Positions 33,001 through 39,000 of a stretch of DNA of 64,000 nt are shown one piece after another. How positions within the stretch are numbered: position 1 is the stretch's first letter; every line of letters starts with the position of its first letter. The stretch is from Escherichia coli (lineage in GTDB: Bacteria; Pseudomonadota; Gammaproteobacteria; Enterobacterales; Enterobacteriaceae): NCBI RefSeq assembly GCF_013315695.1, contig NZ_CP054353.1. One strand, 5' to 3'. A program made the position numbers.

Positions 33001-36000
33001 CGGTTTTTTTATGTCCTGATTCAGACCTCCTTTCAAATGAATACCCAACTCAAAATTCACACCTATTACCTTCCTCTGCACATACGAATTCGTTAAACCA
33101 TATATGTTTTTGACTTATCCGCTTCGAAGAGAGACACTAAGTGCAACAATCAGGAGCGCAATATGTCATTTCTGTTACCCATCCAACTCTTCAAAATTCT
33201 TGCCGATGAAACCCGTTTGGGCATCGTTTTACTGCTCAGCGAGCTGGGAGAGTTATGCGTCTGCGATCTCTGCACTGCCCTCGATCAGTCGCAGCCCAAG
33301 ATCTCCCGCCATCTGGCATTACTGCGTGAAAGTGGGCTATTGCTGGACCGCAAGCAAGGAAAGTGGGTTCATTACCGTTTATCGCCGCATATTCCAGCAT
33401 GGGCGGCGAAAATTATTGAGCAGGCCTGGCGATGCGAACAGGAAAAGGTTCAGGTGATTGTCCGTAACCTCGCCAGACAAAATTGTTCCGCAGACAGTAA
33501 GAATATTTGTAGTTAAAAAATTTATCTAAACACATATGAATATTCGAATGTGTTTTATCAAGGAGGCATGATGTTACTGGCGGGCGCTATCTTTGTCCTG
33601 ACCATCGTATTGGTTATCTGGCAGCCGAAAGGTTTAGGCATCGGCTGGAGTGCGACACTGGGCGCCGTACTGGCGTTAGTTACTGGCGTGGTCCATCCGG
33701 GCGATATTCCGGTGGTGTGGAATATCGTCTGGAACGCGACGGCGGCGTTTATAGCCGTCATTATCATCAGCTTGCTGCTGGATGAGTCCGGCTTTTTTGA
33801 ATGGGCGGCGCTGCACGTCTCACGCTGGGGCAATGGGCGCGGTCGCTTGCTGTTTACCTGGATTGTCCTGCTCGGTGCTGCCGTTGCAGCTCTGTTTGCC
33901 AATGATGGCGCGGCGCTTATTTTGACACCGATTGTCATCGCCATGCTGCTGGCTTTAGGGTTCAACAAAGGCACTACGCTGGCGTTTGTTATGGCGGCCG
34001 GATTCATTGCCGATACCGCCAGCCTGCCGCTTATTGTCTCTAACCTGGTGAATATCGTTTCGGCAGATTTCTTTAGCCTCGACTTTCGCGAATACGCCTC
34101 GGTGATGGTGCCGGTGGATATCGCTGCAATACTGGCTACCCTGGTGATGTTGCATCTCTATTTCCGCAAAGATATTCCGCAGAACTACGACATGGCGCTG
34201 CTAAAATCTCCCGCAGAAGCGGTTAAAGATCCTGCCACCTTCAAAACTGGCGGGGTTGTTTTACTGCTTCTGCTGGTGGGATTTTTCGTCCTGGAACCGC
34301 TCGGCATTCCGGTAAGCGCCATTGCGGCAGTGGGCGCGCTGATATTATTTGTCGTCGCTAAACGCGGTCATGCGATTAATACGGGTAAGGTGCTGCGCGG
34401 TGCGCCCTGGCAGATTGTCATCTTCTCGCTCGGCATGTATCTGGTGGTTTATGGCCTGCGCAATGCCGGATTAACGGAATATCTTTCTGGCGTACTCAAC
34501 GTGCTGGCGGATAACGGCCTGTGGGCGGCGACGCTCGGCACCGGATTCCTCACCGCCTTCCTCTCTTCTATTATGAACAATATGCCGACGGTACTGGTTG
34601 GCGCGTTGTCCATTGATGGCAGCACGGCATCTGGTGTCATCAAAGAAGCGATGGTTTATGCCAACGTAATTGGCTGCGATTTGGGGCCGAAAATTACACC
34701 GATTGGTAGCCTGGCAACGCTGCTCTGGCTGCACGTACTTTCGCAGAAGAATATGACTATCAGCTGGGGATATTACTTCCGTACAGGGATTATCATGACC
34801 CTGCCGGTGCTGTTTGTGACGCTCGCCGCGCTGGCGCTTCGTCTCTCTTTCACTTTGTAATGAGATACTGATATGAGCAACATTACTATTTATCACAACC
34901 CGGCCTGCGGCACGTCGCGTAATACGCTGGAGATGATTCGCAACAGCGGTACAGAACCGACCATTATCTATTATCTGGAAACTCCACCCACACGCGATGA
35001 ACTGATCAAGCTCATTGCCGATATGGGGATTTCCGTTCGTGCGCTGTTGCGTAAAAACGTTGAGCCGTATGAGGAACTGGGCCTTGCAGAAGATAAATTT
35101 ACTGACGATCGGTTAATCGACTTTATGCTGCAATATCCCATCCTGATTAACCGCCCGATTGTGGTGACACCGCTGGGAACTCGCCTGTGCCGCCCTTCAG
35201 AAGTGGTGCTGGAAATTCTGCCAGATGCGCAACAACGCGCGTTCACCAAGGAAGATGGCGAGAAAGTGGTTGATGAGGCGGGTAAACGCCTGAAATAGCT
35301 AAAGGGGGATATGCCCCCTTATTTGTTCTTCGTGGCTCCTTCGCCATCTGTTTTGCTGTTTACGCAGCACTCCTCACGTAAAAATTCAATTATCGCTTCC
35401 AGCATTGCGTATTGCGAAACACACATCAGCGTCCGACTCTCACGGTTTTGTTTGACCAACCCTACCGATACCAGTGCTGAAATATGGTGACTGAGTGTAG
35501 AGCCGGGTATCCCAAGCTGCTTTTGCAACTCACCGACCGGCAAACCTTGTTCCCCCGCTTTGACCAGATGCTTAAATATGAACAAACGGGTCGGGTGACC
35601 TAGCTCTTTCAGCGCTTTAGCAACTTCTTCCAACTGCATATGACTCCCCTCTGTCTGGTTGATATTTCGATAATACCAGAAATATCTTGATTTGAATTTC
35701 ATTTCGATTATTCTGGAAATATAGATTTATTCAATGAGGTTACGTATGAGTAGTTGGCTTGCGATGCTGCAAGATGCCGCAGAGATGTTTGTGTTTCTCG
35801 CCGTCGAGCTTTCTTTGCTGTTTATAGTGATTAGTGCCGGTGTCAGCCTGATAAGACAAAAGGTGCCAGACCATAAAATCCAGCAGATGATGGGGGCCAG
35901 AAAAGGGAGAGGCTATCTCCTGGCTGCTCTGTTGGGAGCCGTTACCCCGTTCTGTAGTTGCTCGACAATACCCATGTTACGTGGATTGTTATCAGCGAAA

Positions 36001-39000
36001 GCCGGGTTTGGTCCGACCCTCACTTTTTTATTTGTTTCCCCATTACTTAATCCCATTATCGTCGGGTTAATGTGGGTGACCTTTGGCTGGAAAGTTACCT
36101 TGTTGTACGAGATTATCGCCGCCGGCGTCTCCGTACTTGCCAGTATTATCCTGGATTCCCTGGGATTTGAACGTCATATCATTGCCAGTAAAAGCTCATC
36201 AGCAAATTGTTGTGCTCCAGCCAAAACTTCGCCGGGGACGACATATACGCCAATAAAAGTGAGTTGCTGTAGTCCAGCGGCTAAAGCCATTGAGAAACCT
36301 GTAGTAAACTGTTGCAGTACCAAAGCTGTGGTAAGTATTAATCCCATAAAACTAGCCACCAAAGATGCGTTGCAACAGTTTAAAGATGTACTGCCATATC
36401 TTTTGTTAGGGGTATTAATAGGCTCTTTTATTTATGGCTTTATTCCCTCAGAGTGGATTGCCGCTCATGCAGGGGCAGATAATCCCTTCGCCATCCCATT
36501 GAGCGCCGTTGTTGGTATTCCGCTATATATCCGGGCAGAGGCAGTTATCCCTCTGGCATCTGTTTTGATGACAAAAGGAATGGGTCTGGGAGCATTAATG
36601 GCATTAATCATCGGCAGTGCCGGCGCAAGCCTGACGGAAGTGATATTACTTAAATCAATGTTCAGAATACCGATGATAGTTGCATTCCTGACGGTTATCT
36701 TAGGTATGGCTATCTTGATGGGCTATTTGACTCAAATGCTATTTTAAATAGATGCCAGCAGTAAACTATAAGGAGTATTGTGAGTGCCTTATCCTTCTGA
36801 GTAGAAAATCATAGATAGGATAATCCTTAAAAATAACAAATAACTTAACTAATGCTTTGAGAATGATGACGGATCCGTCAGTAAGTCATCAATCGACAAT
36901 CACCACGCAATCATGCTTCTCTGACATTTTATCGGAGAAGCAATGTCTCTTTGTCTCAGTATCATCCCCCTTTTAAAGGGTAGATTTCAGTCGCCAATAC
37001 AACACATTTTTAAATACACTTTAACCTGGTTCATTATTACACATCTAAAACATCACAAAAATATCACTTCACACACTATCGGAGAACATCATAACTTCGG
37101 TAATGACTCCAACTTATTGATAGTGTTTTATGTTCAGATAATGCCCGATGACTTTGTCATGCAGCTCCACCGATTTTGAGAACGACAGCGACTTCCGTCC
37201 CAGCCGTGCCAGGTGCTGCCTCAGATTCAGGTTATGCCGCTCAATTCGCTGCGTATATCGCTTGCTGATTACGTGCAGCTTTCCCTTCAGGCGGGATTCA
37301 TACAGCGGCCAGCCATCCGTCATCCATATCACCACGTCAAAGGGTGACAGCAGGCTCATAAGACGCCCCAGCGTCGCCATAGTGCGTTCACCGAATACGT
37401 GCGCAACAACCGTCTTCCGGAGCCTGTCATACGCGTAAAACAGCCAGCGCTGGCGCGATTTAGCCCCGACATAGCCCCACTGTTCGTCCATTTCCGCGCA
37501 GACGATGACGTCACTGCCCGGCTGTATGCGCGAGGTTACCGACTGCGGCCTGAGTTTTTTAAGTGACGTAAAATCGTGTTGAGGCCAACGCCCATAATGC
37601 GGGCTGTTGCCCGGCATCCAACGCCATTCATGGCCATATCAATGATTTTCTGGTGCGTACCGGGTTGAGAAGCGGTGTAAGTGAACTGCAGTTGCCATGT
37701 TTTACGGCAGTGAGAGCAGAGATAGCGCTGATGTCCGGCGGTGCTTTTGCCGTTACGCACCACCCCGTCAGTAGCTGAACAGGAGGGACAGCTGATAGAA
37801 ACAGAAGCCACTGGAGCACCTCAAAAACACCATCATACACTAAATCAGTAAGTTGGCAGCATCACCCATACAACGACATAATAAAATATCAGCAAGAATT
37901 CCAAAAAGAATGTTACAAGCAAGTTAAAGATTTTACAACACCCTCTCGATACAATAGAATTAAAAAATGGGCACAAATGTCTGAATATCAATTCGAAATA
38001 TTTCAACACGATACGTTTCATCCTAAAAAAATGTCATACGCACCTTATTTAAAGAGATCGCTACCTGATGAAAAAACTATAAATTATGGGGTAGAAATAG
38101 AAACACCAATTGGCAAAAGAATTCGCTGGTAATGACTCCAACTTATTGATAGTGTTTTATGTTCAGATAATGCCCGATGACTTTGTCATGCAGCTCCACC
38201 GATTTTGAGAACGACAGCGACTTCCGTCCCAGCCGTGCCAGGTGCTGCCTCAGATTCAGGTTATGCCGCTCAATTCGCTGCGTATATCGCTTGCTGATTA
38301 CGTGCAGCTTTCCCTTCAGGCGGGATTCATACAGCGGCCAGCCATCCGTCATCCATATCACCACGTCAAAGGGTGACAGCAGGCTCATAAGACGCCCCAG
38401 CGTCGCCATAGTGCGTTCACCGAATACGTGCGCAACAACCGTCTTCCGGAGCCTGTCATACGCGTAAAACAGCCAGCGCTGGCGCGATTTAGCCCCGACA
38501 TAGCCCCACTGTTCGTCCATTTCCGCGCAGACGATGACGTCACTGCCCGGCTGTATGCGCGAGGTTACCGACTGCGGCCTGAGTTTTTTAAGTGACGTAA
38601 AATCGTGTTGAGGCCAACGCCCATAATGCGGGCTGTTGCCCGGCATCCAACGCCATTCATGGCCATATCAATGATTTTCTGGTGCGTACCGGGTTGAGAA
38701 GCGGTGTAAGTGAACTGCAGTTGCCATGTTTTACGGCAGTGAGAGCAGAGATAGCGCTGATGTCCGGCGGTGCTTTTGCCGTTACGCACCACCCCGTCAG
38801 TAGCTGAACAGGAGGGACAGCTGATAGAAACAGAAGCCACTGGAGCACCTCAAAAACACCATCATACACTAAATCAGTAAGTTGGCAGCATCACCGAATT
38901 CGCTTATCAAATCATTACCAGAATATAATCCCATAATATTGAACATTAGCGCTTTATAATCATTGAATAAAAATAGATTTTATGCACCTTTAAAAAAAGG

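What the first reader, a model, noticed from the sequence alone, without database searches (positions are those of the whole stretch)
35319..36747. Divergent ArsR-family regulator plus ArsP-like permease (TPFCSCS motif) appended to arsRBC
Immediately after arsC lies a second ArsR/SmtB-type repressor with a C-terminal Cys pair (…REECC), transcribed divergently from a permease of about 333 aa carrying the TPFCSCS motif, which I recall as the hallmark of ArsP organoarsenical (methylarsenite/roxarsone) efflux permeases. In K-12 this position holds yhiS interrupted by an insertion sequence as I recall, so the module is accessory. An organoarsenical-specific module next to the inorganic arsenic operon would extend the chromosomal ars locus; the substrate could equally be another soft metal or metalloid.
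Basis: partly seen in the sequence, partly recalled or inferred. Interest (0 to 1): 0.65.

Follow-up and report, generated by a model that had tools for sequence, protein, structure and literature searches.

The report
Methylarsenite-sensing regulator and ArsP efflux permease
Next to the E. coli arsenic operon sits an intact two-gene unit, a repressor and an efflux permease, that matches the Shewanella pair known to switch on with methylarsenite; about 41% of complete E. coli genomes carry it, K-12 has lost it, and it is a further member of a known system rather than a new one.

Summary
A 106-aa ArsR/SmtB regulator (35319-35639, minus strand) lies divergent from a 333-aa PF03773 (ArsP_1) permease (35746-36747), directly after arsC.

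TPFCSCS is not diagnostic: it is invariant across the whole PF03773 family, which includes Cu/Zn exporters.

The decisive evidence comes from the regulator:
- It belongs to the same three-Cys subfamily as Shewanella putrefaciens SpArsR, the published methylarsenite-selective repressor. Cys73/91/92 correspond to SpArsR Cys83/101/102.
- Its 20-nt operator recurs, with 1 and 2 mismatches, in the SpArsR-controlled arsP promoter. None of 2000 shuffles reached that.

Supporting evidence:
- The permease is 57% identical to the Shewanella xiamenensis permease next to a close SpArsR relative.
- On plasmids and in a Citrobacter prophage, copies of the pair sit beside arsH, arsD and arsA or arsRDABC.

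The unit is not a recent add-on. E. fergusonii has it at the same locus, 2221 of 5426 complete E. coli genomes carry it, and K-12 retains a 62-nt relic of the regulator.

Transport and induction have not been tested in E. coli. Verdict: new member of a known kind, moderate interest.

The parts
35302..35320 (.). G+C-rich hairpin between the convergent arsC and regulator genes, a likely bidirectional terminator. It overlaps the regulator stop codon.
   Evidence: Terminator-like site in the scan (7 pairs, 5 of them G-C, followed by a T-rich tail). This is a consensus match only.
35319..35639 (-). SpArsR-type ArsR/SmtB repressor, 106 aa. It has a winged helix-turn-helix with recognition helix PGSTLSHHISAL, and cysteines Cys73 in the wing and Cys91-Cys92 at the end of helix alpha5.
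   Evidence: NF033788 scores 60.8 bits against a cutoff of 55. Pfam HTH_20 and HTH_5 match. The best PDB match is AfArsR 6J05, with the CC pair aligned to Cys95/96. tblastn against the SpArsR gene from the PMC12124457 supplement gives 54% identity over 78 aa, with all three cysteines at the same spacing.
35364..35369 (-). Codons for the vicinal pair Cys91-Cys92, the inferred two-coordinate MAs(III) site. They correspond to SpArsR Cys101/102 and AfArsR Cys95/96.
   Evidence: The pair is conserved in at least 116 of 120 homologues. Its role in SpArsR is described in PMC13236881 and PMC11868830.
35421..35423 (-). Codon for Cys73, in the last wing strand just before alpha5. It is invariant and its role is unknown.
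   Evidence: Cys in 120 of 120 homologues. The equivalent is present in SpArsR (Cys83) and in NdArsR.
35662..35686 (.). Operator site 1. The core reads ATTTCTGGTATTATCGAAAT on the minus strand and has the form ATTTC-N10-GAAAT. It overlaps the promoter-like site facing the permease gene.
   Evidence: Repeat and palindrome found. Of 25 columns, 24 are identical and one is a single-base gap in two plasmid copies whose permeases are 75-80% identical. Zero mismatches in Aeromonas and Citrobacter, and 1 mismatch in the S. putrefaciens 200 arsP promoter.
35701..35722 (.). Operator site 2, an 82% copy of site 1 placed 37 bp away. It overlaps the promoter-like site facing the regulator gene.
   Evidence: The S. 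putrefaciens promoter also has a second site (2 mismatches to the core).
35659..35688 (+). Promoter-like site for the permease: TTGATA, 18-nt spacer, TATCTT.
   Evidence: Consensus scan, 9 of 12 positions. The count in the region is no higher than in shuffles, so this is weak evidence on its own. Its overlap with operator site 1 is what makes it plausible.
35707..35734 (-). Promoter-like site for the regulator: TTGAAT, 16-nt spacer, AATAAT.
   Evidence: Consensus scan, 9 of 12 positions. It overlaps operator site 2.
35746..36747 (+). PF03773 (ArsP_1) permease, 333 aa. It consists of two homologous membrane repeats joined by a disordered Cys-rich loop.
   Evidence: Pfam E-value 6.5e-52. The AlphaFold2 model has mean pLDDT 86.7 and pTM 0.82. 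The internal repeat is supported by hhalign at 94% probability, E 1.3e-7. It is 57% identical to the S. xiamenensis permease that sits next to a close SpArsR relative.
35944..35964 (+). TPFCSCS (residues 67-73), located at a break in a membrane helix. Cys70 and Cys72 form the inferred substrate-binding thiol pair.
   Evidence: T67, P68, F69, C70, C72 and S73 are invariant in 65 family members. The helix break at residues 67-70 is seen in the model. The motif is family-wide and so does not indicate substrate.
36181..36342 (+). Hypervariable Ser/Thr/Pro/Ala-rich central loop (residues about 146-199) carrying three CC pairs at 155-156, 174-175 and 189-190.
   Evidence: Homologues carry 1-4 CC pairs and differ in loop length, giving total lengths of 332-377 aa. 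pLDDT is below 55 across the loop. dN/dS in the loop is 0.26-0.35, against 0.03-0.10 in the membrane parts.
36526..36540 (+). YIRAE (residues 261-265), the second-repeat counterpart of the CSC motif. Arg263 aligns with Cys70 and Glu265 with Cys72. It is a candidate proton-coupling site.
   Evidence: hhalign of the two halves. Y261 and R263 are invariant in 65 sequences. The coupling role is inference.
36914..36942 (+). Terminator-like hairpin 167 nt after the permease stop codon.
   Evidence: 11 pairs followed by a T-rich tail. Consensus match only.

Best explanation
The two genes form a self-contained, inducible efflux unit for trivalent organoarsenicals: methylarsenite, and probably reduced roxarsone and phenylarsenite. 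It is the E. coli counterpart of the S. putrefaciens arsR-arsP pair.

Proposed mechanism:
1. Repression. The dimeric repressor binds two ATTTC-N10-GAAAT operators that overlap the two back-to-back promoters. This shuts off both its own gene and the permease gene.
2. Induction. MAs(III) needs only two sulfur ligands. It binds the vicinal pair Cys91-Cys92 at the end of helix alpha5, and the repressor leaves the DNA.
3. Transport. The permease then exports the arsenical, driven by the proton gradient. The Cys70/Cys72 pair at a broken membrane helix acts as the transient binding site. The Arg263/Glu265 pair of the second repeat is the likely coupling site.
4. Loop. The Cys-rich loop is probably cytoplasmic and may capture substrate.

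Shown here: gene structure, family membership, orthology of the regulator and operator to SpArsR and its promoter, purifying selection, and links to ars genes.

Inferred: the inducer, the substrate, the energy coupling, and the roles of the loop and of Cys73.
For: Regulator:
- The best solved homologue is AfArsR, with the CC pair aligned exactly to As-binding Cys95/96 and no cysteine after it.
- The SpArsR gene printed in the PMC12124457 supplement translates to ...VLYC83VPDY...QDQC101C102SGQ. This is the same three-Cys layout and 18-residue spacing as the E. coli protein. The recognition helix PGSTLSHHISAL is identical, and identity is 54% over 78 aa.
- SpArsR is MAs(III)-selective. PMC13236881 and PMC11868830 describe it so. 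In an independent biosensor, 0.1 uM MMAs(III) gave a stronger signal than 50 uM As(III) (PMC12124457).
- NdArsR, the other MAs(III)-selective repressor used in that paper, has the same layout.

Operator:
- The 20-nt E. coli core occurs with 1 and 2 mismatches in the 222-bp S. putrefaciens arsP promoter. None of 2000 shuffles reached 2 mismatches or fewer.
- The core has 0 mismatches in Aeromonas and Citrobacter.

Permease:
- PF03773 match.
- 57% identity to the S. xiamenensis permease divergent from a close SpArsR relative.
- The Shewanella gene is called arsP in the literature (PMC12124457; PMC12607644 citing Chen 2015).
- C. jejuni ArsP exports MAs(III) and Rox(III) but not As(III) (review PMC6205960).

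Genomic context:
- Plasmid copies lie divergent from regulator-arsH-sigma-arsD-arsA.
- K. oxytoca plasmid: arsB-arsC-arsC-phosphatase-permease-regulator-arsH.
- Citrobacter: arsRDABC-regulator-permease.
- Endozoicomonas and Pseudoalteromonas copies have arsA/arsD/acr3 or arsH nearby.

Selection: dN/dS is 0.03-0.10.
Against: - No experiment on the E. coli genes was found in the held literature.
- I could not obtain the C. jejuni ArsP sequence. The nearest Campylobacter family member in AFDB50 is only about 33% identical. Orthology to the one transporter with transport data is therefore remote.
- I found no transport data for the Shewanella permease itself.
- PF03773 also contains Cu/Zn exporters (PMC3219624).
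- Most relatives in marine Gammaproteobacteria are stand-alone pairs with no ars gene within 10 kb. Only about 4 of 45 loci have one. Aeromonas, Vibrio and Shewanella sp. D64 also lack them.
- The invariant Cys73 and the Cys-rich loop have no place in the published two-cysteine model. They could allow three-coordinate As(III), Sb(III) or metal binding.
Confidence: 0.68

Rival explanations
1. The pair is a broader thiophilic metal or metalloid exporter (As(III)/Sb(III), Cd, Cu(I), Zn, Hg). Its sensor would use all three conserved cysteines, with Cys73 from one subunit and Cys91/92 from the other forming a three-sulfur site across the antiparallel alpha5 helices. The Cys-rich loop of the permease would bind metal.
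For: - Cys73 is invariant in 120 of 120 homologues. It sits just before alpha5, and AfArsR-type sites lie at the ends of antiparallel alpha5 helices (PMC11868830).
- The only NCBIfam permease matches are SO_0444 Cu/Zn efflux and SaoE, both weak.
- SO_0444 is required under Zn and Cu stress (PMC3219624).
- The loop carries 1-4 CC pairs in every clade member examined.
- Most marine relatives have no ars neighbours.
Against: - SpArsR has the same three cysteines, yet it responds to MAs(III) and hardly to 50 uM As(III).
- The scores against SO_0444 and SaoE are far below their cutoffs: 109 against 300, and 85 against 325.
- SO_0444 is predicted to be regulated by a ZntR-like regulator, not an ArsR-family one.
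- Wherever the pair has metal-resistance neighbours, they are ars genes, often arsH. None of the neighbourhoods inspected has Cu, Zn or Hg resistance genes immediately beside the pair.
Confidence: 0.17
2. The regulator is a thiol-redox or reactive-sulfur sensor, as BigR, SqrR and YgaV are. The permease would export a sulfur compound or an electrophile, and the position next to ars genes would be incidental.
For: - YgaV and BigR are the second and third best PDB matches.
- More distant PF03773 genes sit beside thioredoxin-like, rhodanese and OsmC genes.
- The Shewanella sp. D64 pair lies next to an AhpC/Redoxin gene.
Against: - The alpha2 cysteine that BigR and YgaV use is a lysine here (alignment).
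- NF040642 (BigR) scores 38 bits against a cutoff of 155.
- The thioredoxin-linked permeases are only 27-32% identical and lack the Cys-rich loop.
- SpArsR is experimentally responsive to an arsenical.
Confidence: 0.05
3. The module is a decaying or silent remnant in E. coli with no present function.
For: - 59% of complete E. coli genomes have lost it, leaving relics.
- Shigella entries in AFDB are truncated to 223-257 aa.
- IS1 copies lie just downstream in this window.
Against: - Both ORFs are intact here and have good ribosome-binding sites.
- The regulator is 100% identical in protein to that of E. fergusonii despite synonymous change (dS 0.057).
- dN/dS of the membrane parts is 0.10 against E. 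fergusonii and 0.03 against plasmid copies.
- The operators are conserved.
Confidence: 0.04

Closest known systems
SpArsR (Sput200_1227) with arsP (Sput200_1226) of Shewanella putrefaciens 200: a MAs(III)-selective repressor and the arsP promoter it controls (Chen, Nadar & Rosen 2017, as cited in PMC12124457, PMC13236881 and PMC11868830)
   Same: - Both are divergent two-gene units.
- The regulator shares the three cysteines at identical spacing, the same recognition helix, and 54% identity over 78 aligned residues.
- The same ATTTC-N10-GAAAT operator occurs twice in the intergenic region.
- The permease is 57% identical to that of the close relative S. xiamenensis, which also has a Cys-rich loop.
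   Different: - The E. coli regulator lacks SpArsR's 10 N-terminal residues.
- The intergenic region is 106 bp rather than 222 bp.
- The E. coli unit sits directly after arsRBC.
- Neither induction nor transport has been tested for the E. coli genes.
ArsP of Campylobacter jejuni: an efflux permease for MAs(III) and Rox(III) (Chen et al. 2015, as summarised in PMC6205960)
   Same: - Same Pfam family, PF03773, which is named after it.
- It has a conserved cysteine pair. From my memory of the abstract, which I could not check here, that pair is required for transport.
- It lies in an ars gene cluster.
   Different: - I could not obtain the sequence. A Campylobacter family member in AFDB50 is about 33% identical, which indicates a different clade.
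- C. jejuni arsP is described as part of an ars operon, not as one gene of a divergent pair with a dedicated SpArsR-type repressor.
- Whether it has a Cys-rich central loop is unknown to me. The 35-41% identical ars-operon permeases I aligned lack one.
AfArsR of Acidithiobacillus ferrooxidans (PDB 6J05): an As(III) sensor using Cys95, Cys96 and Cys102
   Same: - It is the best solved homologue (E 3e-10).
- The CC pair aligns residue for residue with Cys95/96.
   Different: - There is no equivalent of Cys102.
- An invariant wing cysteine is present that AfArsR lacks.
- Identity is 32%.
SO_0444 family Cu/Zn efflux transporters (NF033936) and SaoE (NF040736)
   Same: Same superfamily, and the same CSC motif.
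   Different: - The scores are far below the family cutoffs.
- The regulator type differs: ZntR-like for SO_0444.
- There is no SAO ABC transporter nearby.

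Membership tests
ArsR/SmtB family, SpArsR-type (MAs(III)-selective) subfamily | Winged helix-turn-helix ArsR/SmtB fold | tested here: met
   NF033788 scores 60.8 bits against a cutoff of 55. Pfam HTH_20 matches at 4.5e-14 and HTH_5 at 2.4e-6.
ArsR/SmtB family, SpArsR-type (MAs(III)-selective) subfamily | Vicinal Cys pair at the C-terminal end of alpha5, equivalent to SpArsR Cys101/102 and AfArsR Cys95/96 | tested here: met
   Cys91/92 align to AfArsR Cys95/96 and to SpArsR Cys101/102.
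ArsR/SmtB family, SpArsR-type (MAs(III)-selective) subfamily | No third cysteine downstream of the pair (AfArsR Cys102 absent) | tested here: met
   The tail VNSKTDGEGATKNK contains no cysteine. Only 12 of 121 aligned sequences have a cysteine about 5 residues after the pair.
ArsR/SmtB family, SpArsR-type (MAs(III)-selective) subfamily | Same DNA target as SpArsR | tested here: met
   The 20-nt core recurs in the SpArsR-regulated arsP promoter with 1 and 2 mismatches, and 0 of 2000 shuffles reached that. The recognition helix is identical. Actual binding was not tested.
ArsR/SmtB family, SpArsR-type (MAs(III)-selective) subfamily | Derepression by MAs(III) and not by As(III) | not testable with these tools
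   Requires a reporter or gel-shift assay. It is known only for SpArsR.
ArsP organoarsenical exporter family (Pfam PF03773) | PF03773 domain over the full length | tested here: met
   E-value 6.5e-52, residues 13-334 matching model positions 3-293 of 294.
ArsP organoarsenical exporter family (Pfam PF03773) | Conserved membrane cysteine pair (CSC) | tested here: met
   Cys70 and Cys72 are invariant in 65 sequences. The motif is family-wide, so it does not separate ArsP from Cu/Zn exporters.
ArsP organoarsenical exporter family (Pfam PF03773) | Close relationship to a transporter with measured MAs(III) transport (C. jejuni ArsP) | tested here: inconclusive
   The sequence was not obtainable. A Campylobacter hyointestinalis family member is 33% identical with TM-score 0.82. 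Identity to the Shewanella arsP-type permease is 57%, but I found no transport data for that protein.
ArsP organoarsenical exporter family (Pfam PF03773) | Recurrent linkage to ars genes | tested here: met
   Found next to arsRBC here and in E. fergusonii, arsRDABC in Citrobacter, arsH-arsD-arsA on plasmids, and arsB/arsC/arsH in K. oxytoca. Many marine relatives are stand-alone.
ArsP organoarsenical exporter family (Pfam PF03773) | Export of trivalent organoarsenicals | not testable with these tools
   Requires MIC, accumulation or vesicle transport assays.
SO_0444 Cu/Zn efflux family (NF033936) | Score above the curated cutoff | tested here: not met
   108.9 bits against a cutoff of 300.
SaoE (NF040736) | Score above the cutoff, and co-occurrence with the SAO ABC transporter | tested here: not met
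   84.9 bits against a cutoff of 325. No such genes lie nearby.
AfArsR-type three-Cys As(III) sensor | Third ligand cysteine 6 residues after the CC pair | tested here: not met
BigR/SqrR/YgaV persulfide sensors | Cysteine in alpha2 paired with a C-terminal cysteine | tested here: not met
   The alpha2 position is Lys (FIFKHLV, against LVCTLV in BigR and ILCML in YgaV) in the alignments. NF040642 scores 38 bits against a cutoff of 155.

The most novel reading that the evidence does not exclude
Two features of this clade fall outside the published model of a two-cysteine sensor and a simple permease: the invariant wing cysteine of the regulator, and the hypervariable CC-rich loop of the permease. 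The most novel reading still open is that the loop is a built-in thiol relay. It would receive trivalent arsenicals from the ArsD chaperone and couple the permease to the ArsA ATPase. On the plasmids, regulator-arsH-sigma-arsD-arsA lies beside this permease with no arsB or acr3 in the inspected flanks. That would make an ATP-driven organoarsenical pump of a new composition. Cys73 would widen or gate the sensor's ligand range.
Probability: 0.12. Interest if true: 0.6.

Novelty: new member of a known kind. Interest (0 to 1): 0.35.

Why it matters
- Annotation. About two in five complete E. coli genomes, and about 1000 PLSDB plasmid records with a tblastn match (roughly two-thirds of them at 60% identity or more, in Escherichia, Salmonella, Citrobacter and Klebsiella), carry genes labelled only 'permease' and 'ArsR/SmtB family transcription factor'. 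These can now be named as a probable methylarsenite and roxarsone sensing and efflux unit.
- Laboratory hosts. The K-12 hosts used to measure organoarsenical toxicity and to build MAs(III) biosensors lack the unit, so they may understate what wild E. coli can tolerate. A carrier strain used as a biosensor host would probably show cross-talk, because the operator is the same.
- Agriculture. Several plasmid copies in the listed hits come from poultry and pig isolates, including a 283-kb blaCTX-M-65 plasmid of Salmonella Infantis from chicken. This fits a history of arsenical feed additives and possible co-selection with antibiotic resistance. It is a lead only, and I did not quantify it.
- Evolution. 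The relic in K-12 shows that the shorter K-12 ars locus is the derived state.

Tried and rejected
- Motif in the literature. TPFCSCS as a text string gave 0 papers.
- Key papers not held. The ArsP paper (PMC4681449), the SpArsR paper (PMC5653410) and the NdArsR paper (PMC8881391) are not in the library. Their content is taken from papers that cite them. The SpArsR sequence comes from the supplement of PMC12124457. That machine-read text has lost 2 bases, so I aligned it by tblastn across frames.
- C. jejuni ArsP sequence. I could not obtain it.
  - AFDB50 gave only a C. hyointestinalis relative.
- Solved structures. Foldseek against the PDB found nothing similar to the model (best E 0.9), so no mechanism can be borrowed from a solved structure.
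- Regulator dimer geometry. I considered modelling the dimer to measure Cys73-Cys91 distances. I dropped the idea because the tool returns no coordinates.
- Rejected readings of the regulator.
  - SO_0444, SaoE and BigR membership were rejected on scores below the cutoffs.
  - AfArsR-type As(III) sensing was rejected because the third cysteine is missing.
- Literature on the E. coli genes. Two searches found nothing. That is not proof that nothing exists.

Full report
**1. What is there**

The window is an E. coli chromosome segment: gor, dinQ, arsR, arsB, arsC, then the finding, then IS1 copies, slp and dctR.

Immediately after arsC (34873-35298) lie two divergent genes.

The regulator:
- The ORF is 35319-35702 on the minus strand.
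- The start with a strong ribosome-binding site is the ATG at 35639, giving 106 aa. RefSeq uses the same start in SMS-3-5.
- It is an ArsR/SmtB protein: NF033788 scores 60.8 bits against a cutoff of 55, and Pfam HTH_20 matches at 4.5e-14.

The permease:
- It starts at 35746 (GAGG lies 6 nt upstream) and ends at 36747, giving 333 aa.
- It matches Pfam PF03773 ArsP_1 at 6.5e-52 over nearly its whole length.

**2.

TPFCSCS is invariant in all 13 PF03773 proteins I aligned. These include 27-32% identical ones that sit beside thioredoxin-like genes. In a 65-sequence alignment, T67, P68, F69, C70, C72 and S73 are invariant.

A preprint on related families states that CSC is the motif most strongly shared by the SO_0444 Cu/Zn exporters and SaoE (10.1101/2022.07.06.499078). 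SO_0444 is needed under zinc and copper stress (PMC3219624).

The motif therefore marks the family, not the substrate.

**3. The regulator identifies the system**

- Best solved homologue. This is AfArsR (6J05, E 3e-10). Cys91-Cys92 align exactly to its arsenic-binding Cys95-Cys96. AfArsR's third ligand, Cys102, has no equivalent here.
- The published parallel. Two papers describe SpArsR of S. putrefaciens 200 as an AfArsR-like repressor that has only the pair Cys101/Cys102. They report that it therefore binds two-coordinate MAs(III) and not As(III) (PMC13236881; PMC11868830).
- The SpArsR sequence. The supplement of PMC12124457 prints a codon-optimised SpArsR gene (Sput200_1227) and the native 222-bp arsP promoter (Sput200_1226).
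  - Translated, SpArsR reads MNIADMNVAD-MNVENAAKVLKELGHP...GRVLYC83VPDYELLQGLVHFLQDQC101C102SGQ.
  - Apart from 10 extra N-terminal residues, it aligns with the E. coli protein at 54% identity over 78 residues.
  - The recognition helix PGSTLSHHISAL is identical.
  - All three cysteines fall at the same 18-residue spacing: Cys73/91/92 here, Cys83/101/102 there.
- A second example. NdArsR, the other MAs(III)-selective repressor used in that paper, has the same layout.
- Conservation. In 120 database homologues, Cys73 is present in 120, Cys91 in 117 and Cys92 in 116.

**4. The operator is shared**

- The 106-bp intergenic region holds two copies of a 22-nt imperfect palindrome, 37 bp apart. Each copy overlaps one of two back-to-back promoter-like sites (these are consensus matches only).
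- Site 1 matches at 24 of 25 columns, with one single-base gap, in plasmid copies whose permeases are only 75-80% identical.
- The 20-nt core ATTTCTGGTATTATCGAAAT occurs:
  - with 0 mismatches in Aeromonas and Citrobacter;
  - with 1 mismatch in a Shewanella locus;
  - with 1 and 2 mismatches at two places in the S. putrefaciens arsP promoter fragment.
- None of 2000 shuffles of that fragment reached 2 mismatches or fewer.
- That promoter is repressed by SpArsR and opened by MAs(III). In the independent biosensor, 1 uM MMAs(III) gave 73% of the unrepressed signal and 50 uM As(III) gave 9%.

**5. The permease**

- Closest relatives. It is 57% identical over 328 aligned residues to the S. xiamenensis permease, which is divergent from a regulator that closely matches the translated SpArsR by eye. 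The Shewanella gene is named arsP in the literature.
- Model. The AlphaFold2 model is confident (pLDDT 86.7, pTM 0.82) except for residues 150-195.
- Internal repeat. The two membrane halves are homologous (hhalign 94%, E 1.3e-7). TPFCSCS aligns with the invariant PLYIRAE, so Cys70 and Cys72 correspond to Arg263 and Glu265. Both motifs sit at breaks in membrane helices.
- No solved relative. No solved structure resembles the model (best Foldseek E 0.9).
- Central loop.
  - It differs in length and sequence between homologues, but it always carries cysteine pairs, 1-4 CC.
  - It evolves faster than the membrane parts but is still constrained: dN/dS is 0.26-0.35 against 0.03-0.10.
  - More distant ars-operon permeases lack it.
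  - Its location in the cytoplasm and any role in capturing substrate are my inference.
- Other families. NCBIfam gives only sub-threshold matches to SO_0444 and SaoE.
- C. jejuni ArsP. I could not obtain this sequence, the one family member with transport data (review PMC6205960). A Campylobacter relative in AFDB50 is 33% identical.

**6. Neighbourhoods**

The two-gene unit is what is conserved. It appears in these settings:
- After arsRBC, in E. coli and at the identical locus in E. fergusonii.
- After arsRDABC, inside a lambdoid prophage in Citrobacter.
- Divergent from regulator-arsH-ECF sigma-arsD-arsA on IncI, IncF and IncFIB plasmids of E. coli and Salmonella, including a blaCTX-M-65 plasmid of S. 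Infantis from chicken.
- As arsB-arsC-arsC-phosphatase-permease-regulator-arsH on a K. oxytoca plasmid.
- On K. pneumoniae IncF plasmids, a regulator of the same three-Cys type with a similar palindrome heads arsH-sigma-arsD-arsA, without the permease.

By contrast, Aeromonas, Vibrio and Shewanella sp. D64 carry the pair alone. Of about 45 species-representative loci at 43% identity or more, only Endozoicomonas (arsA, arsD, acr3) and two Pseudoalteromonas (sigma, arsH) have ars genes within 10 kb.

The ars link is far more frequent than chance would give, but it is not universal.

**7. History in E. coli**

- The module is present in 2221 of 5426 complete genomes.
- Genomes without it (ATCC 8739, UTI89, K-12 MC4100) have about 310 bp in its place, containing REP-like sequence.
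- That spacer holds colinear relics:
  - a 62-nt ungapped block, 79% identical to the 3' end of the regulator gene. Its local alignment score is 36, against 11.8 +/- 1.3 (maximum 16) in 300 shuffles. It translates to YTMLDAIIGISRREYCVNSK, against YAMLEAIIEFLREECCVNSK in the intact gene;
  - a 17-23-nt piece of the permease gene.
- The module is therefore ancestral at this locus, and K-12 has lost it.

**8. Verdict**

Open points:
- any direct test in E. coli;
- the substrate range of this permease clade;
- the role of the invariant Cys73;
- the role of the Cys-rich loop.

Noticed in passing
window 37099-37866 and 38128-38895: Two 768-bp IS1 copies lie just downstream of the permease. Next to the first copy, 1159 bp present in SMS-3-5 are missing, which removes most of the yhiS-like gene. 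A 261-bp 3' remnant survives at 37867-38127. The second IS1 is flanked by a 9-bp target duplication.
   Followed up: partly
L108 3578-3639 (K-12 MC4100) and L005 2077-2139 (ATCC 8739): The arsC-yhiS spacer is identical in K-12 and ATCC 8739. It contains a 62-nt relic of the regulator's 3' end, a short permease relic and REP-like sequence. The shorter K-12 ars locus is therefore a deletion product.
   Followed up: yes
L002 5208-5753; L023 5485-6099; L029, L051, L058; L109 9083-9628: An ECF-type sigma factor gene repeatedly accompanies the three-Cys regulator. It lies directly downstream in Vibrio. It occurs with arsH in Pseudoalteromonas. On enterobacterial plasmids it sits between arsH and arsD. 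No anti-sigma factor or target is evident.
   Followed up: no
window 35421-35423 (Cys73 codon): The wing cysteine of the regulator is invariant in 120 of 120 homologues and is present in both experimentally MAs(III)-selective repressors. The literature I could read nevertheless describes only the CC pair as the ligand set. Its function is unexplained.
   Followed up: partly
L007-L010, about 3230-9092 (Citrobacter): A complete arsRDABC operon plus the regulator-permease pair sits inside a lambdoid prophage, between replication genes and the DinI/RusA/lysis genes. It is apparently carried as phage cargo.
   Followed up: no
L109 (K. pneumoniae IncF plasmid) 10347-12214: In the widespread Klebsiella pco/ars plasmid island, the same regulator type heads arsH-sigma-arsD-arsA. 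Here it faces a GNAT acetyltransferase and an aquaporin gene instead of the PF03773 permease.
   Followed up: partly
AFDB50 entries A0AB36PK37, A0A0I0R8U0 (Shigella): The Shigella flexneri and S. sonnei versions of the permease are 97% identical but only 223-257 aa long. This suggests pseudogenisation in Shigella.
   Followed up: no
L006 (UTI89) 1-1926: UTI89 keeps arsC but has no annotated arsR or arsB between dinQ and arsC, so its ars locus is reduced on both sides.
   Followed up: no
permease model m0d0577951125: Foldseek finds no solved structure resembling this confident PF03773 model (best E 0.9). The fold of the ArsP family appears to be experimentally unsolved.
   Followed up: partly
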